This document shows positions 658 to 23,047 of a DNA stretch of 32,000 nucleotides, one piece after another. Numbering within the stretch: position 1 is the stretch's first letter; the number at the start of each line of letters is the position of its first letter. Both the position numbers and the translations under genes were made by a program. The stretch comes from Candidatus Saccharimonadota bacterium (GTDB lineage Bacteria > Patescibacteriota > Microgenomatia > UBA1406 > GWC2-37-13). The stretch lies in NCBI GenBank assembly GCA_016700135.1, contig CP065004.1:420001-452000 (forward strand), in the 5' to 3' direction. The notes beneath the pieces were generated by a model, which saw nothing but the letters and a program-made list of their open reading frames with translations, did no database searches and was not told the DNA's origin.

Positions 658-1938
658 ATGCGGGATCTTAAAACGACTACAATCGAAACACTTACTAGGC
701 TGCAAGACATAGACATCATTGAGAGAATAGATAATTATTCCGAGCGTTTCTATGATGAGCCAAGGCACTTTTACTTTGGGACTGTGTTATCTTCTGATTA
801 TGAAAAAATTCTGAGGAAGGATTACTTTTATCATTCCGAACAGTCAATCGGAGTGGGAATATCTTTTGAATCACCCTATCATGCACTTTTAAAATCAATA
901 ATGGAAGCGGTTGAGCGTTTTTCTCAAAGATCCGTCCCTACTGATCGGATACGGTACCGAACTCTATCTGTCTCCGAACAAAAGGCTTCAATTTTTTTCC
1001 AATCTGAAGACTTAAACTTTAAACTCAAGCCGTTACAATTCGGCTTTGTGGAAGGAATGGATATGATTACAGGACAACCTGCGGAGGTCCCTGCACAATA
1101 CGTATACCTGGAGTCGTACCATAAACTGACAAATCATACTGAAACACTTTTTACCCCGGATATTTCCACCGGTACTGCGGCCGGTTTTGATGAAGAAAAG
1201 GTCCTCATGACCGGTATTTGTGAGATTGTAGAACGGGATGCTCTCATGTCACTTTACCTCAACTCGGTACCTTTGCATCCGATAGATACGCGAAGTTTAC
1301 CGTTTCAAAAGATAAAAAGGATAATAAATCTCTGCAGAAGATATCTCCTGACGCCGTATATTTTCATCATACAGACCGATTTACAGATTCCTGTCGCTAT
1401 GACAATACTGGTAGACAAGACGGGGTACGGAGCCGCTGTTTCAGTGGGTGGGGGATGCTCACCCGAGATTGAAAGTGCTATTATTCACAGTATTGAAGAG
1501 TCGCTGGCATTCCGATTTCTCATAAAACGGAAAATGAATGAGCTACGTACGACCGAATTCAATATAAAGCAAAGCGAAATTATCGACAATACATATATGC
1601 AAATGTACTGGAGCGCTTTGGATAAGATTAATGAATTATCGTTCTGGATTGATCAAGATCCTCTTCCCTATCAACATCCCGATAATCCGATACAAAAGCT
1701 CTCCGATTTTGTCTCTTTGTGTAAGAAAAGAAAGATTCCTCTGTATAATGTAAATATCACTCCAAAGCCTTTGCAAGATGCAGGAATAGTGGTGCGAAGA
1801 GCTGTTATGCCTACGCTTCAGCCATTTTATGATGATCGGACTAAACCATTTATTTATAAAAAGAGGATAGAGACGGTATCAAAAAAATTTAATAAACACA
1901 CCTATACCTTAAATCCCATTCCCCATCCGATACCATGA
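658..1938 (+). CDS. YcaO-type cyclodehydratase (azoline-forming class)
   Basis: 426 aa. YcaO hallmark blocks GVGISFESPYHALLKSIMEAVERFS and STGTAAGFDEEKVLMTGICEIVERDA. The C-terminus ...NPIPHPIP matches the PxPxP motif described for azoline-forming YcaOs. The stop overlaps the next start (ATGA). Confidence 0.85.
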   Translation: MRDLKTTTIETLTRLQDIDIIERIDNYSERFYDEPRHFYFGTVLSSDYEKILRKDYFYHSEQSIGVGISFESPYHALLKSIMEAVERFSQRSVPTDRIRYRTLSVSEQKASIFFQSEDLNFKLKPLQFGFVEGMDMITGQPAEVPAQYVYLESYHKLTNHTETLFTPDISTGTAAGFDEEKVLMTGICEIVERDALMSLYLNSVPLHPIDTRSLPFQKIKRIINLCRRYLLTPYIFIIQTDLQIPVAMTILVDKTGYGAAVSVGGGCSPEIESAIIHSIEESLAFRFLIKRKMNELRTTEFNIKQSEIIDNTYMQMYWSALDKINELSFWIDQDPLPYQHPDNPIQKLSDFVSLCKKRKIPLYNVNITPKPLQDAGIVVRRAVMPTLQPFYDDRTKPFIYKKRIETVSKKFNKHTYTLNPIPHPIP

Positions 1939-2690
1939 AAAAAATTGATATAAAAGAGCTCACTCAGACAAGAAGTCATGCGTACCAAAGATTTCATAAG
2001 AAAACGATTCTTTCGTCCATTCCTCAATTTGAGTTTATGCCTGATGAACTGCCTGAAGCAGCTACGAAAACCTACTATAAGTCGTATCCGCGATTCCCGG
2101 AGATCAAACTTCCGACGCCGGACATGAAGCTGGGAAAACTGAGCGAATCTTTTGAGCAAAGAACTTCTTCCCGAACCTTTTCCAACAAACCGGTTTCAAT
2201 GAAGCAGTTGAGCACACTTCTCCATTTCTCTGCCGGAGAACATAATAAAAATAAACGATTTTACCCTTCCGGCGGGGCAAGATATGGCTTAGAGACGTAT
2301 CTCATTTCAACAAATACTTCTCTTGAAAACGGTGTGTATCATTACTATGTTCCCGGACATTCTCTCGAAAAACTCCTTTCGATAGATACCGTAGATTTTC
2401 ACAAAGCATTTACCCCTTACAATCAAACATGGGCTAAGAATATGGGCTTCATGATTGTGATGACAGCCGTTATCGATAGAATATTCATCAAATACGGTGA
2501 GAGAAGCTATCGATTTGCGCATATCGAAGCCGGCCATATGGGGCAGAATATGTATCTGATCTCCAATCAAATCAGTCTGAATTGCTGCGGCGCAGCCGGC
2601 ATCGTTGATACATACTTTGAAAAAGTGCTGGATATCAACCTGGAAAAGGAGCCCATAATCTACACGGTGATTTTTGGCAGTATCGGTTGA
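1935..2690 (+). CDS. SagB-type (nitroreductase-fold, FMN) azoline dehydrogenase
   Basis: 251 aa. Blocks RTSSRTFSNKPVSMKQLSTLLHFSAG and RFYPSGGARYGLETYLI are typical of SagB/McbC-type dehydrogenases. Translationally coupled to the YcaO gene. Confidence 0.8.
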   Translation: MKKIDIKELTQTRSHAYQRFHKKTILSSIPQFEFMPDELPEAATKTYYKSYPRFPEIKLPTPDMKLGKLSESFEQRTSSRTFSNKPVSMKQLSTLLHFSAGEHNKNKRFYPSGGARYGLETYLISTNTSLENGVYHYYVPGHSLEKLLSIDTVDFHKAFTPYNQTWAKNMGFMIVMTAVIDRIFIKYGERSYRFAHIEAGHMGQNMYLISNQISLNCCGAAGIVDTYFEKVLDINLEKEPIIYTVIFGSIG

Positions 2691-2727: not shown

Positions 2728-3099
2728 ATGAAACTTCTCAAGTACATCATCATTCTTCTTTTTGTCGTGGTACTGGCCGAAGCATTTTATTTGTTCGTGA
2801 TCAAAGGCTTTCAGTTTGGTCCTAAGAAACAGAACACTGCACAAACAGCAATCACAAGGTCTCCTACAGCAACTCCGTCCGAACCGTCAGAGATTGAGAT
2901 TGATGAAAATCGGCTGGAAAGTATTGACCAATTTTATTACGACATTAACCCCAATATGGCCCTTGATCCTAAAGTGATTTACAGTCACATCTTTTATAAA
3001 AAAAGGTGTTACCCAGAAATCGGTCATACAAAATACTCATCAGGGAAGGATCTCTCAAATCGATCGTACCCCACGCAAAGCTTTTTACGGGTATTATGA
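2728..3099 (+). CDS. Membrane-anchored protein TM1, N-terminal part (frame broken at the A7 run 2998-3004)
   Basis: N-terminal TM helix (LLKYIIILLFVVVLAEAFYLFVI) followed by a P/S/T-rich linker (RSPTATPSEPSE). After the A-run the listed frame turns into Cys/His/Tyr-rich text and stops, while the adjacent frame stays open (next feature). Confidence 0.55.
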   Translation: MKLLKYIIILLFVVVLAEAFYLFVIKGFQFGPKKQNTAQTAITRSPTATPSEPSEIEIDENRLESIDQFYYDINPNMALDPKVIYSHIFYKKRCYPEIGHTKYSSGKDLSNRSYPTQSFLRVL

Positions 3100-3382
3100 T
3101 TCTGTCCTTACAATCAGACTGGTCAATTCGGATAATCCGAATATTGGAATCACCCTCAACTTCAGTGAAGAGGATCTGAAAAGGCTAAATGTTTTCATCG
3201 ACCTTGATGAGGAAATTCAAACTGCAAGTACGGACATCCTTAAGGTAGGAGACACGATTGTTGTTGAGGATACTATTGATGCTACCGTCTCTATTCCGAA
3301 TGAGGCTGCAGGACAGGATGGTTTCTTGACCAAATCTTGGGGATTTAATAGAATTAAGACAGTCATAACCAAAATAAACTAA
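3002..3382 (+). CDS. C-terminal continuation of TM1 in the adjacent frame (no start codon of its own)
   Basis: Own translation of the frame starting at 3002: KGVTQKSVIQNTHQGRISQIDRTPRKAFYGYYDSVLTIRLVNSDNPNIGITLNFSEEDLKRLNVFIDLDEEIQTASTDILKVGDTIVVEDTIDATVSIPNEAAGQDGFLTKSWGFNRIKTVITKIN*. About 127 open codons contain no Met. Removing one A from 2998-3004 joins it to ...VIYSHIFYKK. It loosely resembles the C-terminal half of the 12838-13329 protein. Confidence 0.5.
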   Translation, partial: KGVTQKSVIQNTHQGRISQIDRTPRKAFYGYYDSVLTIRLVNSDNPNIGITLNFSEEDLKRLNVFIDLDEEIQTASTDILKVGDTIVVEDTIDATVSIPNEAAGQDGFLTKSWGFNRIKTVITKIN

Positions 3383-3402: not shown

Positions 3403-3960
3403 ATGCGAACAAAAATTCATAATTATTCGAAGCCGAAAATCACTTCAAAAAAAATCAAGAGTAATTTTTTTTACAGTAAAAGAATGTATGACGGTGAGGA
3501 TCTTCTTGCCGGTATGATGGATGTTAGGATTCTTGCACGGTCCGGCTCTTGTAGCTGTTTCCCTGATTATACGAAAGTACTCCTTCCCGGCAACAATACG
3601 AAATCGATAAGAGATATTCGAGAAGGAGACACGGTGACTTCATACAATCTTGATGAGAATAGATTGACTGAGAGCAAAGTCATGGAGCAAATTATTCATC
3701 TTGATGCAAAAGTACAGTACTTTATCATCAACGGGAATATCAAGACAACCGCAGAACATCCGTTCTGGGTAAACGGAGAAAGATGGACAAGAGCCCACGA
3801 GATAAAGGTAGGAGATTGGCTGCTTACACCGACAGGTGAAAAAGTGGAAATTTCCGATATCGAGTCTTATTCCGCAGTAGAGACAGTATACAATCTTGAG
3901 CTGGAAGGAGAAGAACACAACTATTTTGCAGAAAATGTACTGGTACATAACCAACGCTAA
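3403..3960 (+). CDS. 51-aa leader-like N-terminal peptide fused to a complete Hint (intein-fold) autoprocessing domain
   Basis: 185 aa. Hint block A is C52-FPDYTKVLLPG...IRDIREGDTV, block B is TAEHPFWV, and the terminal block is VYNLELEGEEHNYFAENVLVHN followed only by QR-stop. The N-terminal 51 aa contain Y8-SKPKI and end in SGSCS directly before Cys52 (codon 3556-3558). Confidence 0.8.
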   Translation: MRTKIHNYSKPKITSKKIKSNFFYSKRMYDGEDLLAGMMDVRILARSGSCSCFPDYTKVLLPGNNTKSIRDIREGDTVTSYNLDENRLTESKVMEQIIHLDAKVQYFIINGNIKTTAEHPFWVNGERWTRAHEIKVGDWLLTPTGEKVEISDIESYSAVETVYNLELEGEEHNYFAENVLVHNQR

Positions 3961-4785
3961 TGTAAGATGTCTCCGTTTTTGAAAAATGATATAACCTTTT
4001 CCTCGTCCTTGGGGAAATCAAGGTAATAAAAGTGATTAAACTCCGCTACAAACTTCAGAAATATTTCCATTTTGTCTTTTACCTGCACACCGTCATAAGT
4101 AAAATCACCTAAAAATAAATTCAGTATCTGCTTATTGTCTTCCAGTTTTGTGACTTTGACATTCGCTCGATTTTCTCAAAAAGAAGATTTTCCTGAGAGG
4201 ATAGCTTTCCGAATGCTTAGTTAGCCACCAATTCCTTTCCCATAACGGATTTTGGAAGCAATGGAAGGTATTCCCAATCTTTAATCAGGACAAATCATCA
4301 GCAAAACGGTGGAACTTTTTCCGTAGGAGTGTACTGATTGTAGTCTTCCCCGCCCCGGATTTTCCTAAAAAAAGATATGCTCTTCCTTCGTGAATAATGC
4401 TTGATGCATGCTGAAAAAATCCGGTATCTTTTATGAGAATACTCAGAATTTCCGTAATAATATAATGAAATTGAGACGTGCTTATGGAATAATAAGTTCG
4501 GATACGATTCGGAGATTTTTGCTCATAGAGATTGATAAAGTGAAATTTGCTTTGAATACCGGGAATGACACTCATGATATTGCTTTCCCGAAACTCAATC
4601 GTATAATCAACCTTTTTGGGCTTTTCCATAGAGACAAAGTCGCGAAAAAGCATCATTATCTCTCGCTGCAATTTGTCGCGAAGAAACACCGTAAAACGGG
4701 GCTTGATCATAACGACTTTAATTGAAAAGCCGATAATATTCAGATAAAAAGTACTCATAGATCCTTGTATAATAATCAGACCCAT
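3957..4785 (-). pseudogene. HPr-kinase-like P-loop kinase paralogue, inactivated (in-frame TGA plus one frameshift)
   Basis: The ORF 4285-4785 ends ...HASSIIHEGRAYLFLGKSGAGKTTISTLLRKKFHRFADDLS-TGA (4285-4287). The same frame continues as LKIGNTFHCFQNPLWERN...YPLRKIFFLRKSSEC, collinear with the 11615 paralogue (ADD..AFQLPLEKK..PIRALFYLSQS). A 1-nt frame change near 4158 then gives KVTKLEDNKQILNLFL...FLKFVAEFNHFYYLDFPKDEEKVISFF...-TAG (3957-3959). Confidence 0.65.
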
Positions 4786-4806
4786 TATAGCCTAATCATA
4801 ATCCGT

Positions 4807-7044
4807 ATGTCAGAGATTCATCCCATCATTCAAACCATTGAGAACAACGATGAGGCTTATATACTGTGGAAAGATCACAACATCAAAAATGCAATTGTTT
4901 TGCATATAGACGCACATTTAGATTACAGAAACGATCGTGCCGGACTTCATATCGGGAATTATCTAAAGCATGCAGTTAAAGAACATCTTGCAAAAACGAT
5001 CTACTGGATAGTGCCGGGAAGCGGCAAACAGTTTACAAGCAAGCGGCAAGCGATCAAACAAAAACTGCGTTCTGCAGGGATTCACGAAGAAATAGTACAA
5101 GCAAAATCAGGACTAACGACACTTATTGACCAAACTCGCTTGATCGTATGCCCCTTAGGACTACTACCGAAGACTATCGAAGAACCATATGTCATCGATA
5201 TTGATCTCGATTTTATGTTTTTTTCTTCCTGTCTTACGGCCGATCGGGTACGTAATATTGGCAAAAGATCGCCGTGGATCTCTACTGAGTATTTTGCAAA
5301 GACAATAAAACCGTTGGTAAAAAGTGCCGCATTGACTACTCTTTGCTACTCGACAACCGGAGGCTGGACTCCTATGAGATATCGCCATTTCGGAGATCAG
5401 ATTTTACATATTTTGGGAACTCAAAAGGACAGTATTCATCAAAGAATTATCGCTGGAAATTTTTTTACTTCGTTCTGGAAATATTTCAAAGATAATACAT
5501 TGCAGCAGGCGAAAAAATATTATCAGTCTGCTTTAGCACTGAATCCGACATACGCAAGTTTTTTCATGACTGACGGTCCTCTGTTCATATTGAAAGGTGA
5601 CTTGAGAAGTGCAAGAACAGAATTTTCCCGACTGCAGCAAATTGATCCTCAAAATATTTATGCAATCTTTGGCCTGGGCCTCGTGGAGCTACTTTCAGGC
5701 AATTTGACAAAAGCGAAGGTCTTGATGGAAAAAGCACGATCAATAACGAGTAATAAGGAAATTGTACTCTTTTTAATATATATACAGTCACAACTTGGTG
5801 AGCACGAGATGGTTCAAGAACTTCTGACGGAGTACAAAAAGAGTACGTTCCCTGAAAAACCGCTACCCACAAATGTTCTTAACGGGATACTCCATGAGAT
5901 CGCGGAAAAACTTAAGACAGAGCATCAGATAAAAAATATCGGACAGATGTATCTGTATCCGAATCCTCACGCGGTCACAGTATGGAAAAGGCTGGCGGAA
6001 TACTCCTCCAATAACATCGGAAACTGGACTGAAGAACCTGAAAGCCTTCGGCATACAGCAGCCGCAATCGAACTTGATCTTATCGAAAAAATGGTTGATT
6101 TATATTTCGAAAACCCTGCCGCATATGGAGGATATATGACATCCGGTGCGACGGAAGGAAATATTTTTTCTGCATGGCTGGGACGTAAATATCTTGAAAA
6201 GAAACCCGTGAAATCTCCTATCATACTTCTTGCCAATGACCTCGCCCATTACTCTATCTTCAAGGCAGCAGACGTAACCGGTCTAACCGTTCAATCCATC
6301 CCGGTCAATACCAAAGATTGGAACACGGATACCGACAAACTCATAAAAACAGTCGTCAAATTAAAGAAAAAAGGTATTTCAAAATTTCTTATACCTCTCA
6401 CTCTCGGATACACAGTCGGAGGGACAAATGATGACGTTCAAACAATTGTTCAGGAACTACGCCGGTTGAAAGAGAAAATGGGTATTGAGTATTTCCTTTG
6501 GATCGATGCCGCACTTTCCGGCCTTACCATACCGTTTCTTAAGAATGACTATAGATCCTATTTCTCTCAGGAAATCCATACGGTTGTCGTTGACTTTCAT
6601 AAGGCTCTCGGCGTCCCGATGCCGGCAGGATTTGTTCTCTACCGAAAAGAATTGGCGGGACCGATAAAAACGACTATCCCTTACCTGTCAACCGGTGACA
6701 GCACTCTCCTCGGTTCACGAAACGGAATTGCTCCAATAGCAGCCTGGATGAGTATCCATCAGTATGGATTTACCAAACTTTCCCGTATCCTTAAGAAAGA
6801 AATACATCGCAAGAATAGGATAATAAGCGAAGTGCGAAGAAAATTTCCGGATGCAAGAGTAATAACTGACAGCGATTCACTCCATGCCGCCATATTAGTA
6901 CATGAAGCGCTTCCTCAATCATTCTGTACACGATATGGGCTGCATCTCCGAAAATATACGATAAACAACAAAGAATACTTGTTGTATCCCTTGTTTTTCA
7001 TGCCCCGATGGGATCAGGAATATGCAAGCGGTCCGCGGGAATGA
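4807..7044 (+). CDS. Three-domain fusion: UPF0489-like N-domain, TPR repeats, and a group-II PLP-dependent decarboxylase-like C-domain
   Basis: N-domain: AYILWKDHNIKNAIVLHIDAHLDY and YVIDIDLDFMFFSS (UPF0489-like HxDxHxD and DIDLDFF blocks). TPR: AKKYYQSALALNPTYA and FSRLQQIDPQNIYAIFGLG. C-domain: GGYMTSGATEGNIFSAW, AHYSIFKAADVTGL, IDAALSGLTIPF and VVVDFHKALGVPMPAGFVLYRK (PLP-lysine D-x-HK block). The track starts at TTG 4765; I prefer ATG 4807 (MSEIHPII). TGTATAAT at 4766-4773 is a possible extended -10. Confidence 0.7.
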   Translation: MSEIHPIIQTIENNDEAYILWKDHNIKNAIVLHIDAHLDYRNDRAGLHIGNYLKHAVKEHLAKTIYWIVPGSGKQFTSKRQAIKQKLRSAGIHEEIVQAKSGLTTLIDQTRLIVCPLGLLPKTIEEPYVIDIDLDFMFFSSCLTADRVRNIGKRSPWISTEYFAKTIKPLVKSAALTTLCYSTTGGWTPMRYRHFGDQILHILGTQKDSIHQRIIAGNFFTSFWKYFKDNTLQQAKKYYQSALALNPTYASFFMTDGPLFILKGDLRSARTEFSRLQQIDPQNIYAIFGLGLVELLSGNLTKAKVLMEKARSITSNKEIVLFLIYIQSQLGEHEMVQELLTEYKKSTFPEKPLPTNVLNGILHEIAEKLKTEHQIKNIGQMYLYPNPHAVTVWKRLAEYSSNNIGNWTEEPESLRHTAAAIELDLIEKMVDLYFENPAAYGGYMTSGATEGNIFSAWLGRKYLEKKPVKSPIILLANDLAHYSIFKAADVTGLTVQSIPVNTKDWNTDTDKLIKTVVKLKKKGISKFLIPLTLGYTVGGTNDDVQTIVQELRRLKEKMGIEYFLWIDAALSGLTIPFLKNDYRSYFSQEIHTVVVDFHKALGVPMPAGFVLYRKELAGPIKTTIPYLSTGDSTLLGSRNGIAPIAAWMSIHQYGFTKLSRILKKEIHRKNRIISEVRRKFPDARVITDSDSLHAAILVHEALPQSFCTRYGLHLRKYTINNKEYLLYPLFFMPRWDQEYASGPRE

Positions 7045-7895
7045 AATTTGTATTCAGTCGGGTCAGAGATACCCGCCCGGAGAAAACTTTGTTTTCTATA
7101 CTGACAGAAATAACATCTGCCGCAGTGAATTTTGTAGTTTATCGGACTGATACAGCTAAACATTTTTTCGAGCGGATATCCTTTCTCAGTAGCCCAACGT
7201 ATCAAAATATCTTTGTCCCAAAAAAATCCGAGTTCTTTCTCTAAAGCAAGGGATGTATACTGCCAGTTCATGTCACCGGTCAAAATGCAAAGATTTTGCA
7301 TCACGCTTCGCATCGCCGTCAGCGTCTCATACTTCAAACTTTCTCCGTCTGACGTGACGAATGCAGAGAAGATCGTGCGGATTGATACATTCTTTTCTTC
7401 CTGAAGAAAAAGCGCATACTCGGCAGCATTCAGGGCTAAAAGACCGCTGTAAAGAGGTAAGCCTTTCCTCTGATTTGTGTCACTACTTACAACCTCCTGA
7501 GAATGCTCGGTGATCTTCCATCTGATCTCTTTCGGAGGCATAGGAACATCCAAGTACTGGACTGTCTGAAAAAGCTTAGCATATTTTTTCTGGAAAAACT
7601 GAGAGAAGAACCGTACTGCATTTTCTTCCCGTTGGATGCGCTTATGTCCTCTCCGGAAAAAAACAGGGTAGACCTGCATCTGATACTCTTCAAGAAGCAT
7701 TCCCCAAAGTATAGTAGAGTCCAAACCACCGGATACGGTGAGGATTACCGATTCTCCTTTTTGAGGCATGCGGAAAACATATCCCCGCTTCTCCTTCAAA
7801 AAAGACTCAATGCATTTCAAGGCTGAAAGGTCTTCAAGCTTTCGCTCTATTAACATTCTCTGTAGTTGTTTACTTGTGAGTTTCGGTAATTTCAT
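7014..7895 (-). CDS. QueC-like PP-loop ATP pyrophosphatase (7-cyano-7-deazaguanine-synthase family fold)
   Basis: 293 aa. PP-loop VILTVSGGLDSTILW, and a C-terminal zinc cluster SCISPINYKIHCGRCYFCQYRKQSFLRAGISDP matching the QueC pattern C..CG.C..C..R...F...G..DP. The start overlaps the upstream stop (ATGA at 7895). Its 3' end overlaps the convergent 4807-7044 gene by 31 nt. Confidence 0.7.
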   Translation of the reverse strand: MKLPKLTSKQLQRMLIERKLEDLSALKCIESFLKEKRGYVFRMPQKGESVILTVSGGLDSTILWGMLLEEYQMQVYPVFFRRGHKRIQREENAVRFFSQFFQKKYAKLFQTVQYLDVPMPPKEIRWKITEHSQEVVSSDTNQRKGLPLYSGLLALNAAEYALFLQEEKNVSIRTIFSAFVTSDGESLKYETLTAMRSVMQNLCILTGDMNWQYTSLALEKELGFFWDKDILIRWATEKGYPLEKMFSCISPINYKIHCGRCYFCQYRKQSFLRAGISDPTEYKFHSRGPLAYS

Positions 7896-8767
7896 CAGTA
7901 ACGAATCATAAAATTGCTTTTCCTTCCCCGTTTAAATTTTTTTATATAGGGAGAATATGTTGAGACTTTGATTTCTTTCTTGTTCGGAAAGAACTGAAAA
8001 ATCCGTAAAAACCCGTTTCCGCCTTTTTCGAGATCCTGAAAATTCTGTACGGCTTGATGAACTGCTTCTCCGCACGTATTAGCACTCATTATATAATTCT
8101 CTCCCGTTTGTGTATGAAAATGACCGGAGAGAACTAAACGGATATTGCAGTTTGTCTTGATAAGTTTATGCCAGATATCCTCACCGGCATTACCGAGACC
8201 GCCATAATGAGATATATCGCTCCGGTACGGCAGATCGTCGTAGACAAATGCATGTGTCGCAATTACGGCCATTGTATCACGGTGCCGTTTCAAGATGTTG
8301 TCAGCCCATTGCAGAATCTTATCTGACGGATCAATCTGCAGATGAATAAAAAGGAGAGAGAATGTGTCAACAACAATATGCTGATAACTATTCTGATTCC
8401 CGAGGTATCCTCCTCCGTACCATGATTGTTTTCGGAATTTCTTTATCGGGAAAAAATGATTATAAGTCTGGAAAGAAACTTGTTCATCGTCATAAAAATC
8501 AGCATCATGATTCCCGGGCGCCAAAGCATAAGGAATAACTCCATCAAGCTTGGACAGTTCTGCCGCCATTTTGTGCCATTGTGTCTGATCCGCTGAATTA
8601 TCATCAACGATATCCCCCAAATGCGAAACGAATCGGATGTTTAGTTTCTCCTTTTCCTTCAATATCCAATCCAGTTGTGCTGAAAAAATTTCAGGATATT
8701 TCGACGCATAGAGTTGTGTATCTGACAAAACAATAACGGAATAAAAGGGATTATGCCGAAAAAACAT
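7895..8767 (-). CDS. Calcineurin-like metallophosphoesterase
   Basis: 290 aa with the canonical motif series VLSDTQ, HLGDIVDD, APGNHD, ATHAF and LSGHFH. Confidence 0.8.
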   Translation of the reverse strand: MFFRHNPFYSVIVLSDTQLYASKYPEIFSAQLDWILKEKEKLNIRFVSHLGDIVDDNSADQTQWHKMAAELSKLDGVIPYALAPGNHDADFYDDEQVSFQTYNHFFPIKKFRKQSWYGGGYLGNQNSYQHIVVDTFSLLFIHLQIDPSDKILQWADNILKRHRDTMAVIATHAFVYDDLPYRSDISHYGGLGNAGEDIWHKLIKTNCNIRLVLSGHFHTQTGENYIMSANTCGEAVHQAVQNFQDLEKGGNGFLRIFQFFPNKKEIKVSTYSPYIKKFKRGRKSNFMIRY

Positions 8768-8772
8768 ATGAT

Positions 8773-9759
8773 TTATTGTATCCTGACACCCATCACATAG
8801 GCGGGATCTATCTTTGCGGAAATAATAAACTCATCTCCCGGTGAAACAGATAACTTTTTGTTTGCAGAGGCCTTCAAGACACCCTGCGGAGGAATATTCA
8901 GATTCTGTGCCAGATTCTGAACATGGTTTCTACTGAGTAAATCAATCTTTAACTTAGCACTTCCCAATGTTCCGAAATGCCCATCTTTATTGAATATTCC
9001 TGTATCTTTGGTATCCCCCACTGCCACTTCAACACGAGAAAAGGTGTACTCATGATGCACTACGATATGAAGGCTTTTATCCTTCACGTAATAATTATCT
9101 CCTTTTTCTGACAACAGGAATGACGGTTTTTCGCTAGAGTTAAGGAGAACAGCGTGCGGATACTGACCTTTAAATGAAATACCTCCTCCAAACTGCTCCC
9201 GAGATTTATGCTTCAGATCTGCAAAAGCAGTACCGGGAGAAAAAATTAAGGTTTGTTTAGGAGTCGTATCCTCCGGAAAAAAATCCATATCAAGAGAGTG
9301 TATAACAGAAGTTGCTCCCACTCCTTTTCCGCTATTTATAATGCATATGGCTTGCGGAAGCAGCTTCCCCGAGTAATATGGCCAGTCATGAAGCGCTTCT
9401 ACCTCCGGGTTATCCTCTTCTCGATATTCGGCAAGTTTATCTCCGAACGGTACAGCTGCAAACTGCTTGGTTCCCCAGAACGTCCAAGAATCTGTTTTTT
9501 TATCAAATACAAGAACACGTGAATACGCAGGTTCAGAATCCCAGTTCTTTTGTGCAGGAAGACTGGCTTTTCGATGTGCGAGCGTAATCAAATCAAGAAC
9601 TTTTGTATGAAACATTTCAGGAATAGACACGACTACGGCTTCACCCTGATGGAGGACAGTATTCAGTACACTTGAAAAAGAACATTCCTTTATAACGCTT
9701 ACTGAATGTACTGACTGAATAATCGTCGGATCGCCGGGAATAATCGGCAGCTTATGCAT
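8773..9759 (-). CDS. Hypothetical protein (328 aa) inside the PqqD-to-QueC-like operon; no recognised domain
   Basis: Long ORF with protein-like composition. It overlaps the upstream PqqD-like gene by 8 nt and lies 5 nt from the downstream gene. I recognise no motif. Confidence 0.6.
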   Translation of the reverse strand: MHKLPIIPGDPTIIQSVHSVSVIKECSFSSVLNTVLHQGEAVVVSIPEMFHTKVLDLITLAHRKASLPAQKNWDSEPAYSRVLVFDKKTDSWTFWGTKQFAAVPFGDKLAEYREEDNPEVEALHDWPYYSGKLLPQAICIINSGKGVGATSVIHSLDMDFFPEDTTPKQTLIFSPGTAFADLKHKSREQFGGGISFKGQYPHAVLLNSSEKPSFLLSEKGDNYYVKDKSLHIVVHHEYTFSRVEVAVGDTKDTGIFNKDGHFGTLGSAKLKIDLLSRNHVQNLAQNLNIPPQGVLKASANKKLSVSPGDEFIISAKIDPAYVMGVRIQ

Positions 9760-10045
9760 GAGAAGATTTTGTGGGTTTCTTTTCGATTAGTAATTTTTTC
9801 TTCATAAGTTTGTCTACAAACTCTTTCGTATCTTTCAGGGCTTTCTCCTGATTAATTTCATACTCATCGACCAGATATTTTACAAGATCACTAAAAGTCG
9901 CACCTTTTTTTAGCTGCTTGAAAAGATCAGCAGCCGTTTCGTTGAGGGTATGCAAAATTGAGGTTTCACCGTCGAAGATAAATACCTCCTCATTCACCTG
10001 CTGGACAACGAGGTCTTTTTTGAGTTTATATTTTGATTTCTTCAT
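9752..10045 (-). CDS. PqqD-family protein (RiPP recognition element-like), copy 2
   Basis: 97 aa. VVQQVNEEVFIFDGETSILHTLNETAADLFKQLKKGATFSDLVKYLVDEYEINQEKALKDTKEFVDKLMKKKLL fits the PqqD pattern (beta strands, then LN.t....w, then a 3-helix bundle). Confidence 0.75.
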   Translation of the reverse strand: MKKSKYKLKKDLVVQQVNEEVFIFDGETSILHTLNETAADLFKQLKKGATFSDLVKYLVDEYEINQEKALKDTKEFVDKLMKKKLLIEKKPTKSSHA

Positions 10046-10311
10046 ACGCTCTCAACTATATGTAACTTGACCAGTGACTGGATAAATGTCTTAACCTCCT
10101 TTTTGGCGTTGTTATTTGATATCTCGTACTCCTTCGTTAATGAAGCTATTATTTGCACCAATGTTTTTTTTTCTTTCAGGGACTGAAAAATGATAGAACC
10201 CGTTTCGTTAAACGTATAGAGTTTTGACTCTCCAGCATCAAAAATAATTATTCCTTCCGGAACCTTCTGAACAATAGCTCCCTTTCTGATTTCATATTTC
10301 TTTTCAGCCAT
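10042..10311 (-). CDS. PqqD-family protein (RiPP recognition element-like), copy 1
   Basis: 89 aa. IVQKVPEGIIIFDAGESKLYTFNETGSIIFQSLKEKKTLVQIIASLTKEYEISNNNAKKEVKTFIQSLVKLHIV. Overlaps copy 2 by 4 nt. Confidence 0.75.
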   Translation of the reverse strand: MAEKKYEIRKGAIVQKVPEGIIIFDAGESKLYTFNETGSIIFQSLKEKKTLVQIIASLTKEYEISNNNAKKEVKTFIQSLVKLHIVESV

Positions 10312-10337: not shown

Positions 10338-11618
10338 ATGTCTGCAAAAAATAATGTAACAATTGATCTAAGAACTACCGATCACATTAAGTCATTCGGC
10401 CACAGCATGTACCCGATTCTTCACAACGGAGATATTATTTATTACAAAAAAACTCCTTATCAAAAAATCAAACTGAATGACATAATCATCTCCCAAAAGA
10501 ACAACCTTTATGTCACCCATAGAGTTATATATAAAACTTCGGATTATATTATTACAAAGGGAGATAATAATTTAGAAATTGACGAGCCGCTCTTGCCTGA
10601 ATCAATCATCGGTGTTGTAAATAAAGTACAACGAGGCAAAGTAACGTTTATCCCTGAAACCTATTACCTCCTCCAGTCTTCAATATATTACCAACATATA
10701 CATTCCGTGATTAAGGAAATGGAGCGCCATACGATCTCCTATGTATTGCTAAAAGGACTCCCTCTGCATCTAAAATATCACCAGGAACACCCGCGAAAAG
10801 GTTTTTTTGATTTTGATATTCTTATTTCTCCCACAGATAGAGACGTACTTATGAAAATACTGAATGATCTCGGTTTTAAAAGACGATATGATTTCCTTTC
10901 ACCAACCCACGAAAGACTTATGAACAAATCTATCGAAGAAACATGTATGAAGAAATTTGAAGGATTTAATATCGCAGTTGATATCCATTATGAAGCTGTA
11001 TTTATGATGACTCAGATCGGAACACTCAACCCTCTATATCATCAGAGCTACATTGACGGATTCACAAAGGAACTTTTTAACAATACCGTCACTTTTCAGG
11101 AACACGATCTTAAATGTCAGTTGCTTACTGATGAGTATCTCTTCGTATATCTCTCTCTACATTTTTTTCATCATAATTTTAAAAGTCTTCATCGACTAAA
11201 CCTAATCGCAGCGCTAATTCAATCAATTCCACGAGCAAAGCGTCACGGATTCTGGAAATCTGTTTTTTCTATCATTCACAAGTATCGTCTGCAAGGATAT
11301 ATTTACGGAACATTTATAAGTTTAGAAAAATACCTTCCGGCAACAAGTATTCCACAATGGTTCTTGAATAAAATACGACCGGGCAAAGCTCAATGTAATT
11401 ATTTAAAAAACTACTTTCTCACAGAGCATATTTATGAAGAATACAACGCTACCCGCGCCGGGATCTTATTATTTACACATCTATATATTCTTTCATATAA
11501 TCCATGGTACAAAAAAATACTCGTTTTTTTACAACCTGCAGTCATTTTCATGATGGTATGGCTTGTATACTATTACGTTACAACAAGATGTAAAAAATTA
11601 CTCCGTACATTTCTATGA
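10338..11618 (+). CDS. Fusion of an S24/S26-type serine peptidase domain and an NTP_transf_5-type nucleotidyltransferase domain, with a C-terminal TM helix
   Basis: N-domain: SFGHSMYPILHNGDIIYY...VTHRVIY...ITKGDNN (signal-peptidase/LexA-like G-x-SM-x-P block). Middle: ISYVLLKGLPLHLKYHQEHPRKGFFDFDILISPTDRDVLMKILNDLGF, matching the 'uncharacterised nucleotidyltransferase' family seen in lasso and sacti clusters. C-terminal: ILVFLQPAVIFMMVWLVYYYV. Confidence 0.65.
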   Translation: MSAKNNVTIDLRTTDHIKSFGHSMYPILHNGDIIYYKKTPYQKIKLNDIIISQKNNLYVTHRVIYKTSDYIITKGDNNLEIDEPLLPESIIGVVNKVQRGKVTFIPETYYLLQSSIYYQHIHSVIKEMERHTISYVLLKGLPLHLKYHQEHPRKGFFDFDILISPTDRDVLMKILNDLGFKRRYDFLSPTHERLMNKSIEETCMKKFEGFNIAVDIHYEAVFMMTQIGTLNPLYHQSYIDGFTKELFNNTVTFQEHDLKCQLLTDEYLFVYLSLHFFHHNFKSLHRLNLIAALIQSIPRAKRHGFWKSVFSIIHKYRLQGYIYGTFISLEKYLPATSIPQWFLNKIRPGKAQCNYLKNYFLTEHIYEEYNATRAGILLFTHLYILSYNPWYKKILVFLQPAVIFMMVWLVYYYVTTRCKKLLRTFL

Positions 11619-12418
11619 AGAACTCCGTAATTATCCTGAATACTGCCGCTATATATATTGCTATCGATTTATCACGAATAGCTGATCCTGATATCTTAAA
11701 AGCGCTCTCGGATCAAATCTCTACGTTCTATAAGATGGAGATTGTTAGGAATTTTAAGAAGAAACCGGATTTCACCATTTACTACGTTGCTGATGAAGAA
11801 TACCGATTTGTAAAACAGCAAATAAGGAAAGGAACCAGTATTAACTACTTCTTGGAAACCTTTAGCATTGGAGAGGACTCGGCAAAAATCCACTATCATG
11901 TAAGTATTGCTCAATTCCAATTCTTCTTAAAATTAATCTTACAATCGATTCTCGGGTCCCGAAAGGGTTTCATACTTCACTCCTCCGGAATCACAGACGA
12001 TCAGCATGCATTTCTGTTTTTAGGTCCGAACGGGATCGGAAAATCTACCATCGTAGATAACCTTTCACAAAAATATCGTCCCTATGCAGACGATATGGTG
12101 ATTGTCAGGAAAATTGAACGGGAGTGGTACGCTTTTCAGCTTCCTTTGGAAAAAAAACGTTATAAAAAGATCCCAGATTCAAAAATGCCGATTCGGGCAT
12201 TATTCTATCTGTCTCAAAGCAAAAAAACCAAATTACAGAAAATCTCTTCTACAGAGGCTAGTAAAAAGCTTCTTGACCAACTCATAAGAAACGGTCTCAC
12301 AAAAAAAAATATAACATATCTTTTTGAATTTTTAGCTTTTGTAGATCACTACATTCTTGAAACTCCGAAGAAGACTGCTATAAAAACTATTGAAGGATTA
12401 GTCAGCTCTTATCAGTAA
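11615..12418 (+). CDS. HPr-kinase-like P-loop kinase (RiPP precursor Ser-kinase type)
   Basis: 267 aa. GFILHSSGITDDQHAFLFLGPNGIGKSTIVDNL...YADDMVIV resembles the HprK C-terminal catalytic domain fold found in lasso-peptide kinases. 4-nt overlap with the upstream gene. Confidence 0.7.
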   Translation: MKNSVIILNTAAIYIAIDLSRIADPDILKALSDQISTFYKMEIVRNFKKKPDFTIYYVADEEYRFVKQQIRKGTSINYFLETFSIGEDSAKIHYHVSIAQFQFFLKLILQSILGSRKGFILHSSGITDDQHAFLFLGPNGIGKSTIVDNLSQKYRPYADDMVIVRKIEREWYAFQLPLEKKRYKKIPDSKMPIRALFYLSQSKKTKLQKISSTEASKKLLDQLIRNGLTKKNITYLFEFLAFVDHYILETPKKTAIKTIEGLVSSYQ

Positions 12419-20346: not shown

Positions 20347-20398
20347 TAAGCTCTTCAACTTAATGGTAGAATTAATATTCTTAAGCACTTTCACATTT

Positions 20399-20640: not shown

Positions 20641-20653
20641 AAATGACGCACTT

Positions 20654-23026: not shown

Positions 23027-23047
23027 AGTAAATAACGGATCCGTTAT

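What the first reader, a model, noticed from the sequence alone, without database searches (positions are those of the whole stretch)
3403..3960. Candidate precursor whose follower is a Hint (intein-fold) domain: 51-aa leader-like peptide ending in SGSCS next to the catalytic Cys
**Seen:** the 185-aa ORF is 51 N-terminal residues plus a complete Hint domain (C52-FPDYTKVLLPG, TAEHPFWV, NYFAENVLVHN), followed only by Q-R. There is no host protein. The +1 residue is Gln, so protein splicing is not possible. What remains is an N-S acyl shift at Ser51-Cys52, which places a thioester on the 51-mer, and Asn cyclisation.

**Leader features:** the 51-mer carries Y8-S-K-P-K-I13, i.e. YxxPx(L/I/V), the leader motif bound by PqqD-type RREs in lasso systems. 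It ends in the Ser/Cys-rich SGSCS, residue types that YcaO/SagB heterocyclise. The gene is last in the YcaO-SagB-TM1 operon.

**Inference:** the Hint domain may act as a built-in leader/follower-release or C-terminal activation device. The thioester could be hydrolysed, or captured by an amine made by the neighbouring decarboxylase, analogous to Hedgehog cholesteroylation. I know of no described RiPP precursor of this design.
Basis: partly seen in the sequence, partly recalled or inferred. Interest (0 to 1): 0.9.

Follow-up and report, generated by a model that had tools for sequence, protein, structure and literature searches.

The report
RiPP precursor with self-cleaving Hint follower
A small protein of an uncultured Roizmanbacteria (CPR) bacterium joins a peptide-natural-product style leader and a tiny Ser/Cys-rich core to an intein-like self-cutting domain; I found no description of this way of building a modified-peptide precursor, and it recurs across many CPR genomes.

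Summary
ORF 3403-3960 (+) encodes 51 N-terminal residues, a complete type-A BIL/PT-HINT domain (C52...H182-N183) and a 2-residue tail.

It belongs to a family of more than 60 representatives of about 180-210 aa.
- Y8, P11, C52, T116 and H119 are invariant; HN is present in 56/58.
- A +1 nucleophile occurs in only 7/58.
- The N-extein splits into a Lys-rich, Cys-free leader and a short Cys/Gly/Ser-rich segment.

In 14 distinct loci the gene sits with an HprK-like ScmC (13/14), PqqD (11/14), a signal-peptidase-like/NTP_transf_5 fusion (10/14) and usually YcaO/SagB (11/14). One locus has a radical-SAM enzyme instead.

A leader-only DNA scan found the same leader on stand-alone 41-82-aa peptides in the same cluster slot. 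The same leader is also fused to an unrelated autoproteolytic domain (Peptidase_S74), including window 12402-12833 (-).

The leader-core-Hint precursor reading is therefore well supported. Self-cleavage and the fate of the thioester are inferred. Amine capture, "splicing impossible" and YcaO as the defining partner are not supported as stated.

No paper in the searchable library describes this design, and subscription journals were not searched. Verdict: new variant of a known kind; high interest.

The parts
658..1938 (+). YcaO cyclodehydratase (SagD-type)
   Evidence: Pfam YcaO 5e-34; NCBIfam TOMM_cyclo_SagD 4.8e-42, below its cutoff; orthologues lie upstream of the Hint gene in most family loci.
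1935..2690 (+). SagB-type FMN dehydrogenase (nitroreductase fold); overlaps the YcaO stop by 4 bp
   Evidence: Pfam Nitroreductase 2e-20; NCBIfam antibiot_sagB 118.7 bits, above the 78.4 cutoff.
2728..3382 (+). Small N-terminally anchored TM protein, frameshifted in this assembly at an A6/A7 homopolymer. An intact gene of this kind precedes the precursor gene in most loci.
   Evidence: Translation compared with the 217-aa L008 orthologue. A TMup HMM hits both halves. No Pfam domain.
3403..3960 (+). Precursor protein: leader, core-like segment, Hint domain and QR tail (185 aa)
3403..3537 (+). Leader (residues 1-45): Lys-rich, with Y8-x-x-P11-x-I13, K16-K-I-K, N21-F-F, D30, L34-L, I43-L-A45
   Evidence: Y8 and P11 are invariant in 58/58. 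The leader HMM scores 68 bits here. Leaders contain 0 Cys in 2302 residues and 17% Lys. AF2 shows little secondary structure, with pLDDT 52-82.
3538..3555 (+). Core-like segment R46-S-G-S-C-S51, immediately before the scissile S51|C52 bond
   Evidence: The equivalent segment is length- and sequence-variable (2 to ~47 aa) and is 16% Cys, 20% Gly, 18% Ser and 0% Lys across the family. The boundary is approximate.
3556..3951 (+). Type-A BIL / PT-HINT-class Hint domain (C52 to N183), with block B T116-x-x-H119 and terminal H182-N183
   Evidence: Pfam; PDB profile hits; AF2 pLDDT 95-98; Foldseek top hits are BIL domains; catalytic residues are invariant or nearly so.
3952..3957 (+). Two-residue C-extein, Q184-R185 (no +1 nucleophile)
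   Evidence: Family tails are 0-28 aa (median 5), and +1 is Ser/Thr in only 7/58.
3957..4785 (-). ScmC-type HprK-related P-loop protein, convergent with and overlapping the Hint gene. Disrupted here by an in-frame TGA and a +1 frameshift, so probably a pseudogene.
   Evidence: The ScmC HMM hits three fragments. An intact orthologue holds this position in 13/14 loci.
4765..7044 (+). TPR plus group-II PLP decarboxylase fusion (histidine-decarboxylase-like). Accessory gene confined to the Roizmanbacteria subclade.
   Evidence: Pfam Pyridoxal_deC 2.2e-12 and TPR; NCBIfam histidine decarboxylase 2.8e-49, below cutoff. Present in L005, L007 and L008 only.
7014..7895 (-). QueC-like PP-loop ATPase (SGGLDS). 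Accessory gene of the subclade.
   Evidence: Pfam QueC 2e-10; conserved in L005, L007 and L008.
7895..8767 (-). Calcineurin-like metallophosphoesterase. Accessory gene of the subclade.
   Evidence: Pfam Metallophos 8.1e-14; conserved in L005, L007 and L008.
8773..9759 (-). Conserved 328-aa protein with no known domain. Accessory gene of the subclade.
   Evidence: No Pfam or NCBIfam hit. Orthologues of 328-331 aa are in L005, L007 and L008.
9752..10311 (-). Two tandem PqqD-type RRE proteins (9752-10045 and 10042-10311)
   Evidence: Pfam PqqD 6.7e-14 and 2e-13. The nearest NCBIfam models are lasso-type PqqD chaperones, below cutoff. PqqD is present in 11/14 family loci.
10338..11618 (+). Fusion of an ER/archaeal-type signal-peptidase-I-like domain (G21-H-S-M-Y-P, T60-H-R-V) with NTP_transf_5. 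Candidate leader peptidase plus nucleotidyl/glycosyl-phosphate transferase.
   Evidence: NCBIfam sigpep_I_arch 56.4 bits, above the 51.85 cutoff; Pfam NTP_transf_5 4.3e-17. The GxSMxP and THRV motifs are conserved in orthologues of most loci.
11615..12418 (+). Second, intact ScmC-type HprK-related P-loop protein, convergent with the S74 precursor
   Evidence: NCBIfam SCM_chp_ScmC 3.4e-11, below cutoff; ScmC HMM 2.5e-86.
12402..12833 (-). Second precursor of the same leader family: a 51-residue leader and short segment (MQKKKFIPPSV...VYAAS-NSLYLPIIY) fused to a Peptidase_S74 intramolecular-chaperone autoprocessing domain that starts at S52-D-K-S-L-K
   Evidence: Pfam Peptidase_S74 4.9e-13. The leader HMM, built only from Hint proteins, gives E 4.4e-4 here and 2.7e-8 for the L007 orthologue, with the next best ORF at 0.18. 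Aligns from residue 51 to the phage tail-fibre chaperone 6f45.
12838..13329 (-). TM protein immediately upstream of the S74 precursor, weakly related to the TM protein upstream of the Hint precursor
   Evidence: TMup HMM gives a weak hit (E 1.7e-5, 10.8 bits), and the L007 counterpart hits at 8.9e-5. No Pfam domain.

Best explanation
The 185-aa protein is the substrate (precursor) of a CPR-specific, RRE-dependent RiPP-like pathway. It is not an intein and not a toxin fragment.

Proposed mechanism:
1. Residues 1-45 are a leader. Its invariant Y-x-x-P-x-(I/L/V) strand is read by the stand-alone PqqD proteins.
2. Residues ~46-51 (RSGSCS) are a very short core. YcaO and the SagB-type dehydrogenase can convert its Cys/Ser residues to azol(in)es.
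3. The HprK-like ScmC and the NTP_transf_5 protein may further decorate the peptide, by analogy with Ser phosphorylation and hexosylation of lasso precursors.
4. The C-terminal type-A BIL Hint domain acts as a built-in, single-turnover follower. Cys52 performs an N-S acyl shift on the Ser51-Cys52 bond, and the resulting thioester is resolved, releasing the modified N-terminal peptide with a defined C-terminus. The default resolution is hydrolysis, because cleavage dominates in type-A BILs.
5. The signal-peptidase-like domain fused to NTP_transf_5 is the candidate leader peptidase for the conserved hydrophobic-hydrophobic-A-x-S site.

Shown here: the domain identity and intact catalytic residues; the leader/core compositional switch; conserved synteny; the same leader on stand-alone peptides; and the same leader on an S74 autoprotease fusion.

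Inferred: RRE binding, which residues are modified, that cleavage occurs, its timing, and the leader cleavage site.
For: Domain and catalytic residues:
- Hint/BIL identity.
- Family tally: C52, T116 and H119 in 58/58; H182 and N183 in 56/58; a +1 Ser/Thr in only 7/58; the -1 residue is small (S, G, C or T) in 40/58; tails have a median of 5 aa.

Leader and core:
- Y8 and P11 are invariant.
- Leaders have 0/2302 Cys and 17% Lys. The segment after the hydrophobic-hydrophobic-A motif is 16% Cys, 20% Gly, 18% Ser and 0% Lys, with many indels.

Synteny in 14 distinct leader-Hint loci:
- ScmC 13/14, PqqD 11/14, NTP_transf_5 10/14, YcaO and/or SagB 11/14, and a radical-SAM enzyme instead in L013.
- The core of the radical-SAM-linked member is Cys/Asp-rich, unlike the Gly/Ser/Cys cores next to YcaO.

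Leader-only DNA scan of metagenomes: stand-alone 41-82-aa peptides carry the same leader and C/G/S/T-rich C-termini. They sit directly after YcaO-SagB(-TM) or next to NTP5, PqqD and ScmC, and those loci contain no Hint-coding sequence.

The same leader is fused to an unrelated autoproteolytic S74 domain with an N-extension of the same length.

Precedents:
- HprK-family kinase plus NTP-transferase modify RRE-recognised lasso precursors (PMC6993621).
- Type-A BILs mainly cleave (PMC4031507).
Against: - There is no biochemical evidence for cleavage, RRE binding or heterocyclisation.
- The core is extremely short here, and in some members it is only 2-4 residues with no Cys/Ser/Thr other than Hint Cys1 (e.g. 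P0136, P0110, P0146). That is odd for a released natural product and leaves room for Cys1 itself, or the whole N-extein, being what matters.
- The conserved C-terminal His-Asn is not needed for simple N-terminal release.
- In the window, the adjacent ScmC is a pseudogene and the TM gene is frameshifted, so this copy may be partly decayed, although paralogues exist.
- Contexts were sampled from only 14 loci out of a family of more than 60 representatives.
- The leader/core boundary was set by a regular expression and is approximate.
Confidence: 0.62

Rival explanations
1. The precursor architecture is the same, but the Hint thioester is used productively rather than hydrolysed. Possible captures are: the upstream Cys/Ser side chain, giving an AIP-like thiolactone or lactone; the alpha-amine exposed by leader removal, giving head-to-tail cyclisation; the alpha-amine of the short C-tail after Asn cyclisation (BIL-type ligation); or an external amine such as the product of the neighbouring PLP decarboxylase.
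For: - The full catalytic set, including His-Asn, is conserved, which simple release would not require.
- A Cys or Ser lies 2-5 residues upstream of Cys1 in most members, and several tails after HN are Cys-rich, e.g. P0118, P0155, P0068 and P0137.
- Double-Hint members have a 10-residue MKSGGGGGGG segment between two Hints.
- Type-A BILs can ligate by aminolysis.
- The closest structures are BIL domains of the Tetrahymena BUBL locus. From memory, these are proposed to conjugate ubiquitin-like domains through the BIL thioester.
- A PLP decarboxylase is conserved in the Roizmanbacteria subclade.
Against: - The S74 follower on the same leader family gives plain proteolysis with no thioester, and stand-alone precursors need no activation. 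The common denominator is therefore release, not activation.
- The decarboxylase is absent from most family loci.
- Some members have no upstream nucleophile and almost no tail.
- The window tail is only QR.
Confidence: 0.22
2. The Hint domain does not cleave in vivo. Cys52 itself is the YcaO/SagB substrate, with the thiazoline formed at the Ser51-Cys52 junction, or the domain serves as a folded carrier or scaffold. The functional product would then be the whole modified protein.
For: - Cys1 is the only heterocyclisable residue present in every member, and some members have no other Cys/Ser/Thr near it.
- Inference: the hydroxythiazolidine intermediate of the N-S shift is chemically the species a YcaO would phosphorylate.
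Against: - T116, H119, H182 and N183 would not need to be conserved for a scaffold.
- Family members exist without YcaO.
- Stand-alone and S74-fused precursors of the same leader family have no such Cys.
Confidence: 0.08
3. The N-extension is a targeting or secretion signal. The system would then be a cell-envelope pathway in which the Hint (or S74) domain attaches or releases a small surface peptide, linked to the neighbouring Wzy_C/O-antigen-ligase-like, Bac_transf and glycosyltransferase genes.
For: - Wzy_C, Bac_transf or glycosyltransferase genes recur next to the cluster in the window (13421-14875, 16894-18126) and in L001, L005, L008, L011, L012, L013 and L014.
- A small TM protein always precedes the precursor.
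- The candidate peptidase is of the signal-peptidase type.
Against: - The leader has no hydrophobic core typical of Sec signals.
- PqqD/RRE proteins and YcaO/SagB or radical-SAM enzymes are RiPP hallmarks.
- Envelope glycan genes are very common in CPR genomes, and adjacency was not tested statistically.
Confidence: 0.06
4. The ORF is an orphan remnant of a polymorphic-toxin PT-HINT cassette or of a multi-Hint surface protein, and has no role in the YcaO cluster.
For: - The best Pfam model is PT-HINT.
- The nearest leaderless relatives lie in RHS loci or in giant multi-Hint proteins.
- The flanking genes in the window are damaged.
Against: - More than 60 representatives share the same size and the same invariant leader.
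- Synteny is conserved to 30-40% identity.
- There is no toxin domain.
- The leader is shared with stand-alone peptides.
Confidence: 0.02

Closest known systems
Type-A bacterial intein-like (BIL) domains (Amitai 2003; Dassa 2004; C. thermocellum BIL, PDB 2LWY)
   Same: Hint fold, Cys1, block-B T-x-x-H, C-terminal His-Asn, and no +1 nucleophile. The expected chemistry is an N-terminal thioester plus Asn cyclisation, with cleavage dominating.
   Different: Known BILs sit inside large, variable secreted or surface proteins. This one follows a 51-residue RiPP-type leader and core, is followed by only 2 residues, and is embedded in a PqqD/YcaO/ScmC cluster.
BIL domains of ciliate BUBL loci (Tetrahymena BIL2, PDB 6Y75/6TMM)
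   Same: Best structural and sequence match. A small N-terminal module is placed directly before a BIL domain. From memory, the BIL thioester is proposed to activate the C-terminus of the ubiquitin-like module without ATP.
   Different: Eukaryotic. The upstream module there is a folded ubiquitin-like domain, not an unstructured leader peptide, and no RiPP enzymes are involved.
Hedgehog C-terminal autoprocessing domain
   Same: A signalling or cargo N-terminal part is released by a C-terminal Hint through a thioester. This is a conceptual model for nucleophile capture. Foldseek hits 1at0 and 6tyy.
   Different: There is no sterol-recognition region here; only QR follows the Hint. His-Asn is present here but not in Hedgehog. 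Sequence similarity is much lower than to BILs.
Linear azol(in)e peptide (LAP/TOMM) clusters, including the YcaO-nitroreductase clusters reported in CPR genomes (Sharrar et al. 2020, PMC7298704)
   Same: A YcaO plus SagB-type dehydrogenase pair next to a precursor with a Cys/Ser-rich core, in Microgenomates/Parcubacteria hosts.
   Different: The reported CPR precursor is a stand-alone 84-aa peptide. No Hint or S74 fusion, PqqD/ScmC/NTP_transf_5 core set, or Y-x-K-P-x-I leader family is described. There is no E1-like/ocin-ThiF partner here; the RRE is a discrete PqqD.
Lasso-peptide clusters with an HprK-like kinase and NTP-transferase (paeninodin PadeK; pseudomycoidin PsmK/PsmN)
   Same: A Y-x-x-P-x-(L/I/V)-type leader motif, a discrete PqqD RRE, an HprK-family P-loop protein and an uncharacterised nucleotidyltransferase acting on the precursor.
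   Different: No lasso cyclase (Asn-synthetase homologue) or B2 protease was found in the window. The Tyr lies about 44 residues before the scissile bond. It was not verified that PsmN belongs to PF14907.
SynChlorMet (Scm) and HPr-rel-A cassettes of NCBIfam/TIGRFAMs
   Same: An ScmC-like HprK-related protein together with a PqqD-family chaperone. One family locus (L013) also has a radical-SAM enzyme.
   Different: Scores are well below the equivalog cutoffs (ScmC 43 vs 125 bits; ScmD 18.7 vs 100). These are relatives, not members, and those cassettes have no Hint or S74 precursors described.
Peptidase_S74 intramolecular chaperone autoprocessing domains of phage tail fibres, endosialidases and MYRF
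   Same: The second precursor type in this window carries this domain with the S-D-x-x-x-K motif at its start. It is self-releasing, like the Hint.
   Different: In phages it follows a long fibre or spike whose trimerisation it chaperones. Here it follows a 51-residue leader peptide in a RiPP-like cluster.
PT-HINT domains of polymorphic toxins
   Same: Best-scoring Pfam model. The leaderless outgroup P0014 lies beside an RHS toxin.
   Different: No N-terminal RHS or filamentous region and no C-terminal toxin.

Membership tests
Hint superfamily, type-A BIL class | Hint fold | tested here: met
   Pfam PT-HINT and Intein_splicing above cutoff; AF2 pLDDT 95-98 for residues 52-185; Foldseek TM(target) 0.77-0.86 to BIL domains.
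Hint superfamily, type-A BIL class | N-terminal Cys/Ser nucleophile and block-B T-x-x-H | tested here: met
   C52, T116 and H119 are invariant in 58/58.
Hint superfamily, type-A BIL class | C-terminal His-Asn with no +1 Cys/Ser/Thr | tested here: met
   H182-N183 is followed by Q184. HN is present in 56/58, and +1 is Ser/Thr in only 7/58. The definition is taken from PMC4031507.
Hint superfamily, type-A BIL class | Autocatalytic N- and C-terminal cleavage | not testable with these tools
   Needs expression of wild type and C52A/N183A mutants.
Canonical intein | Inserted in-frame in a conserved host protein, with a +1 nucleophile, so that splicing restores the host | tested here: not met
   The N-extein is 51 aa, the C-extein is 2 aa, and +1 is Gln. 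No host-protein homology was found for the flanks.
Polymorphic-toxin PT-HINT module | Located between an N-terminal delivery region (RHS, filamentous) and a C-terminal toxin domain | tested here: not met
   The domain architecture is 51 aa + Hint + QR. Only the leaderless outgroup P0014 is RHS-linked.
RRE-dependent RiPP precursor | Conserved leader followed by a variable core enriched in modifiable residues | tested here: met
   Cys 0% vs 16%, Lys 17% vs 0%, with indels confined to the pre-Cys1 segment.
RRE-dependent RiPP precursor | Encoded next to an RRE (PqqD) and tailoring enzymes | tested here: met
   Window: two PqqD, YcaO and SagB. Family: PqqD 11/14 and YcaO/SagB 11/14, with a radical-SAM enzyme in L013.
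RRE-dependent RiPP precursor | The same leader family is found on ordinary short precursor peptides in equivalent clusters | tested here: met
   L017, L020/21, L022, L024, L026/37 and L033 carry 41-82-aa peptides in the same slot, with no Hint sequence in the locus.
RRE-dependent RiPP precursor | The leader binds the RRE, the core is post-translationally modified, and a mature product is released | not testable with these tools
   Requires binding assays and MS.
LAP/TOMM (azole-forming) system | YcaO cyclodehydratase plus FMN dehydrogenase plus a Cys/Ser/Thr-rich core | tested here: met
   the core is SGSCS. This is not universal in the Hint-leader family: L012, L013 and L032 lack YcaO in the sequence available.
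Lasso peptide system | Asn-synthetase-like lasso cyclase and transglutaminase-like B2 leader protease | tested here: not met
   Neither was found among the window proteins scanned with Pfam and NCBIfam. The only PP-loop protein is QueC-like.
Lasso peptide system | Y-x-x-P-x-L leader motif read by a PqqD-type B1 protein | tested here: inconclusive
   The motif is present and invariant, and the PqqD proteins score best against lasso PqqD models but below their cutoffs. Binding was not tested.
Hedgehog-type autoprocessing protein | Hint module followed by a sterol-recognition region that recruits the nucleophile | tested here: not met
   Only 2 residues follow the Hint.
SynChlorMet cassette (NCBIfam ScmC/ScmD equivalogs) | Scores above the equivalog cutoffs for ScmC and ScmD, with ScmE/F radical-SAM partners | tested here: not met
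   ScmC 43 bits vs a 125 cutoff; ScmD 18.7 vs 100; no radical-SAM enzyme in the window.

The most novel reading that the evidence does not exclude
CPR bacteria have a widespread RiPP-like precursor family in which one leader (Y-x-K-P-x-I...) is combined with interchangeable C-terminal modules: none, a BIL-type Hint, tandem Hints, or an S74 autoprotease. In the Hint versions, the self-generated thioester would be a natural, ATP-independent C-terminal activation device. It could drive thiolactone/lactone or head-to-tail macrocyclisation, C-terminal amidation, or transfer to an acceptor, as a ribosomal-peptide counterpart of Hedgehog cholesteroylation and of laboratory intein-based cyclisation and ligation.
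Probability: 0.3. Interest if true: 0.95.

Novelty: new variant of a known kind. Interest (0 to 1): 0.85.

Why it matters
- RiPP precursors are normally released from their followers or leaders by separate proteases. A precursor that carries its own intein-like, or S74, self-cleaving follower would be a new biosynthetic logic, and a natural precedent for the intein-thioester chemistry used in peptide engineering.
- It gives BIL domains, whose biological roles are largely unknown, a concrete and testable function.
- It defines a leader family and a core gene set (PqqD, ScmC, SPase-like/NTP_transf_5, TM protein) for mining natural products in CPR bacteria. These organisms cannot be cultured and their secondary metabolism is almost unexplored.
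- The proteins are small and the key experiments are simple.

Tried and rejected
Searches that failed or were wasted:
- The search for homologous proteins with the leader-focused alignment was swamped by Lys-rich words: 1 hit among 256 candidates.
- The literature search for 'ScmC' alone returned only unrelated acronyms. The meaning came from NCBIfam instead.

Readings considered and rejected:
- Canonical intein: no host protein and no +1 nucleophile.
- Polymorphic-toxin fragment: the family is conserved with its leader and synteny, and only the leaderless outgroup is RHS-linked.
- Lasso system: no cyclase or B2 protease.
- Decarboxylase-derived amine capture as a general mechanism: the decarboxylase is confined to one subclade.
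- 'Stand-alone' leader peptides being broken Hint genes: the Hint HMM finds nothing in those loci.

Limits:
- About 15 of the 28 metagenome pattern hits were chance matches in unrelated ORFs.
- Whether PsmN of pseudomycoidin belongs to PF14907 was not checked.
Full report
**1. Observation**

Residues 52-183 are a complete Hint domain.
- Pfam gives PT-HINT 7.7e-14 and Intein_splicing 9.4e-13, both above their cutoffs.
- A family profile hits solved BIL domains: 6y75/6tmm at 1e-17 and 2lwy at 6.5e-16.
- AlphaFold2 with a 53-sequence alignment gives pLDDT 95-98 for residues 52-185. The N-extein is largely unstructured, with pLDDT 52-57 for residues 21-50.
- Foldseek ranks the Tetrahymena BUBL BIL2 and the Clostridium thermocellum BIL ahead of true inteins and Hedgehog.

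Only Q-R follows His182-Asn183. The gene closes a co-directional run of YcaO (658-1938), SagB-type dehydrogenase (1935-2690) and a small TM protein. The source is a Candidatus Roizmanbacteria MAG on a 1.45-Mb contig.

**2. The protein belongs to a sizeable, sharply defined family**

The first search found 11 proteins of 185-192 aa, down to 40% identity. An exhaustive profile search of 1.84 billion representatives found 37,594 Hint proteins. Among the best 150, about 50 clusters at 50% identity are 177-211 aa long and match the profile from position ~1 to 184, which means leader plus Hint.

In a 58-sequence alignment:
- Y8, P11, C52, T116 and H119 are invariant, and H182 and N183 are present in 56/58.
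- The +1 residue is Ser/Thr in only 7/58.
- The -1 residue is small (S, G, C or T) in 40/58.
- N-exteins are 36-86 aa (median 50.5), and tails are 0-28 aa (median 5).

By the definition in PMC4031507 this is a type-A BIL: Cys1, a C-terminal His-Asn and no +1 nucleophile. It forms a thioester and cyclises Asn, cleavage products dominate, and ligation by aminolysis is possible.

**3. The N-extein is organised like a leader plus core**

The consensus is M-K-K-K-Y-x-K-P-x-I-K-x-K-K-I-K-x-N-F-F...R-F-x-D-S-x-D-x-L-L...(hydrophobic)(hydrophobic)-A-x-S. A segment that varies in length (2 to ~47 residues) and sequence follows, and then Cys1.

The composition switches abruptly. Leaders have 0 Cys in 2302 residues and 17% Lys. 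The segment after the hydrophobic-hydrophobic-A motif is 16% Cys, 20% Gly, 18% Ser and 0% Lys (the boundary was set by a regular expression and is approximate). Several members have classic azole-type cores, such as P0101, P0090, P0052, P0149 and P0170-172. In the window the segment is just R-S-G-S-C-S.

**4. Genomic context**

Fourteen distinct leader-Hint loci were examined.
- An HprK-related P-loop protein lies convergent and immediately downstream in 13/14. It matches PF27840 and NCBIfam 'SynChlorMet cassette protein ScmC', below the cutoff.
- PqqD occurs in 11/14.
- An NTP_transf_5 protein occurs in 10/14.
- YcaO and/or SagB occur in 11/14.
- L013 has a radical-SAM enzyme in place of YcaO, and its precursor core is Cys/Asp-rich (CAPQCYGDCD).
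- L012 (a 476-kb contig) and L032 show no YcaO within reach.
- A small TM protein precedes the precursor gene in most loci.
- At least one NTP_transf_5 protein per locus carries an N-terminal ER/archaeal-type signal-peptidase-I domain with G-x-S-M-x-P and T-H-R-V (NCBIfam sigpep_I_arch above cutoff). From established knowledge, signal peptidases prefer small residues at -3 and -1. This domain therefore fits the conserved A-x-S site as a candidate leader peptidase. That is an inference.
- The PLP decarboxylase, QueC-like ATPase, metallophosphoesterase and the 328-aa unknown protein are conserved only in the Roizmanbacteria subclade (window, L005, L007, L008).
- The leaderless next-tier Hint protein P0014 sits beside an RHS toxin, so the family is distinct from polymorphic-toxin modules.

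**5. Two results that go beyond the finding**

First, a leader HMM built only from Hint-family N-exteins was run against 4,276 ORF segments of the window and loci. Apart from the Hint proteins, it picked out exactly two ORFs. Both are Peptidase_S74 proteins: L007 453-917 (E 2.7e-8) and window 12402-12833 (-) (E 4.4e-4). The next best ORF scored 0.18.
- The window S74 protein has a 51-residue extension, MQKKKFIPPSVSVEEIQLNLF...LL...VYAAS-NSLYLPIIY. The S74 domain then starts at S52-D-K-S-L-K and aligns from residue 51 to a phage tail-fibre intramolecular chaperone.
- It is convergent with the second, intact ScmC (11615-12418) and is preceded by its own TM protein.
- So the same leader is fused to two unrelated self-processing domains.

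Second, I scanned the metagenome collection with a DNA pattern encoding only the leader motif Y-x-K-P-x-[IMV]-x3-K-[IMV]-K-x-[NS]-F. It matched the window once, with 0 expected. Of the 28 hits, about 13 are genuine.
- They include stand-alone peptides of 41-82 aa with the full leader and C/G/S/T-rich C-termini: L017, L020/21, L022, L024, L026/37 and L033.
- These lie directly after YcaO-SagB(-TM) or next to NTP_transf_5, PqqD and ScmC, which is the slot occupied by the Hint fusion.
- The Hint HMM finds nothing in those loci.

Together these results show that the N-extein is a genuine precursor-type leader family, and that Hint and S74 are optional followers.

**6. Mechanism**

The best-supported model has these steps:
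- PqqD reads the Y-x-x-P-x-(I/L/V) strand of the leader.
- YcaO/SagB (or a radical-SAM enzyme elsewhere) modify the Cys/Ser of the short core.
- ScmC and NTP_transf_5 may phosphorylate and glycosylate a Ser. In lasso systems, HprK-family PadeK/PsmK and the NTP-transferase PsmN do this on the C-terminal Ser of the precursor (PMC6993621).
- The Hint domain removes itself by an N-S acyl shift at Ser51-Cys52 followed by resolution of the thioester, and the SPase-like domain removes the leader.

The S74 version and the stand-alone versions lack a thioester. That argues that the common role of the followers is self-release, and that hydrolysis is the default fate.

Several observations keep productive capture alive as the main rival (thiolactone or lactone, head-to-tail cyclisation, BIL-type ligation, or amine capture):
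- the conserved His-Asn;
- the frequent Cys/Ser 2-5 residues upstream of Cys1;
- Cys-rich tails in some members;
- double-Hint proteins with an intervening MKSGGGGGGG segment.

Members with almost no core and no other Cys/Ser/Thr (P0136, P0110, P0146) are not explained well by any model.

**7. Comparison with what is known**

- The domain is a type-A BIL. It is neither a canonical intein nor a toxin PT-HINT module.
- The cluster is a LAP-type YcaO/SagB system. Clusters of this kind have already been noted in CPR genomes by genome mining: 110 clusters in 93 genomes, with a stand-alone 84-aa precursor (PMC7298704).
- The accessory trio of PqqD, an HprK-like protein and an NTP-transferase resembles lasso-peptide tailoring sets and Haft's SynChlorMet and HPr-rel-A cassettes. 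However, no lasso cyclase or B2 protease is present, and the NCBIfam equivalog cutoffs are not reached.
- Full-text searches combining Hint domain, intein or BIL with YcaO, PqqD, RRE, RiPP or follower found no description of a Hint- or S74-fused precursor. The library lacks most subscription-journal papers, so prior description cannot be excluded.

**8. Verdict**

- Autoprocessing and modification remain to be shown experimentally.
- I rate this a new variant of a known kind, with high interest.

Noticed in passing
window 12402-12833 (-), with ScmC 11615-12418 (+) and TM protein 12838-13329 (-); also L007 453-920: A second precursor type: the same leader family fused to a Peptidase_S74 intramolecular-chaperone autoprocessing domain. 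Its N-extension is 51 residues and the S-D-K-S-L-K motif sits at the junction. It mirrors the arrangement of TM protein, precursor and convergent ScmC seen at the Hint gene.
   Followed up: yes
L017 1468-1671; L020 3372-3497; L021 146-271; L022 926-1108; L024 7346-7597 (-); L026 ~975-1160; L033 ~1790-1960; L037 ~4240-4430: Stand-alone 41-82-aa peptides with the same leader and Cys/Gly/Ser/Thr-rich C-termini lie in YcaO-SagB and/or NTP_transf_5-PqqD-ScmC clusters with no Hint. One (L020/21) ends ...LLATFKS, with a C-terminal Ser like the phosphorylated Ser of paeninodin-type precursors.
   Followed up: partly
window 2728-3382 (+) and 3957-4785 (-): Both genes flanking the Hint gene are disrupted relative to their L008 orthologues. 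The TM protein has a +1 shift at an A6/A7 homopolymer, which could be an assembly error. ScmC has an in-frame TGA created by a substitution and 3-bp deletion, plus a 1-bp insertion outside any homopolymer, so it is probably a real pseudogene.
   Followed up: partly
window 10338-11618 (+); orthologues in L007, L008, L011, L013, L014, L020-22, L036: NTP_transf_5 proteins carry an N-terminal ER/archaeal-type signal-peptidase-I-like domain with a conserved catalytic Ser (GxSMxP) and His (THRV). This is a candidate leader peptidase for the conserved hydrophobic-hydrophobic-A-x-S site of the leaders.
   Followed up: partly
window 4765-9759: A block conserved only in the Roizmanbacteria subclade: a TPR plus histidine-decarboxylase-like PLP enzyme (fused here and in L008, separate genes in L005/L007), a QueC-like PP-loop ATPase, a metallophosphoesterase and a 328-aa protein with no known domain. 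A QueC-like enzyme could in principle amidate a carboxylate with a decarboxylase-derived amine. This is speculation and was not tested.
   Followed up: no
P0021 (L014 7686-8681), P0169 (L044 6541-7539), P0081: Family members with two tandem Hint domains after one leader, separated by only MKSGGGGGGG (P0021/P0169) or FKI (P0081). Such a short segment would be freed at both ends by Asn cyclisation and thioester formation.
   Followed up: no
P0118, P0155, P0068, P0137, P0157, P0061, P0129: Some family members have Cys- or Gly-rich tails of 7-28 residues after the terminal His-Asn (e.g. RGNCCCTSTCAC), suggesting that the C-extein may also be a substrate or be ligated in those members.
   Followed up: no
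window 13421-14875 (-), 16894-18126 (+); L001, L005, L008, L011, L013, L014: Wzy_C (O-antigen-ligase-like) genes, and often Bac_transf and glycosyltransferase genes, recur beside these clusters. A 568-aa secreted protein with no known domain (window 15181-16887) lies between the two Wzy_C genes. Enrichment was not tested.
   Followed up: no
window 18489-32000: The right part of the window looks like a mobile or defence island. It holds a PIN-domain protein (18489-19982), a pentapeptide-repeat protein (22188-22961), two adjacent N6/N4 DNA methylases (25733-27176), an HTH_Tnp_1_2 protein next to an unannotated 419-aa protein (24159-25740), an AbiEi-like HTH protein (29269-30933) and DUF4238 (30908-31417).
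   Followed up: partly
one search hit list (e.g. P0022 3399 aa, P0025 1285 aa with 9 stretches, P0069 2724 aa with 8): The closest leaderless relatives of this Hint domain are giant proteins with up to nine Hint repeats. Their source organisms and function were not examined.
   Followed up: no
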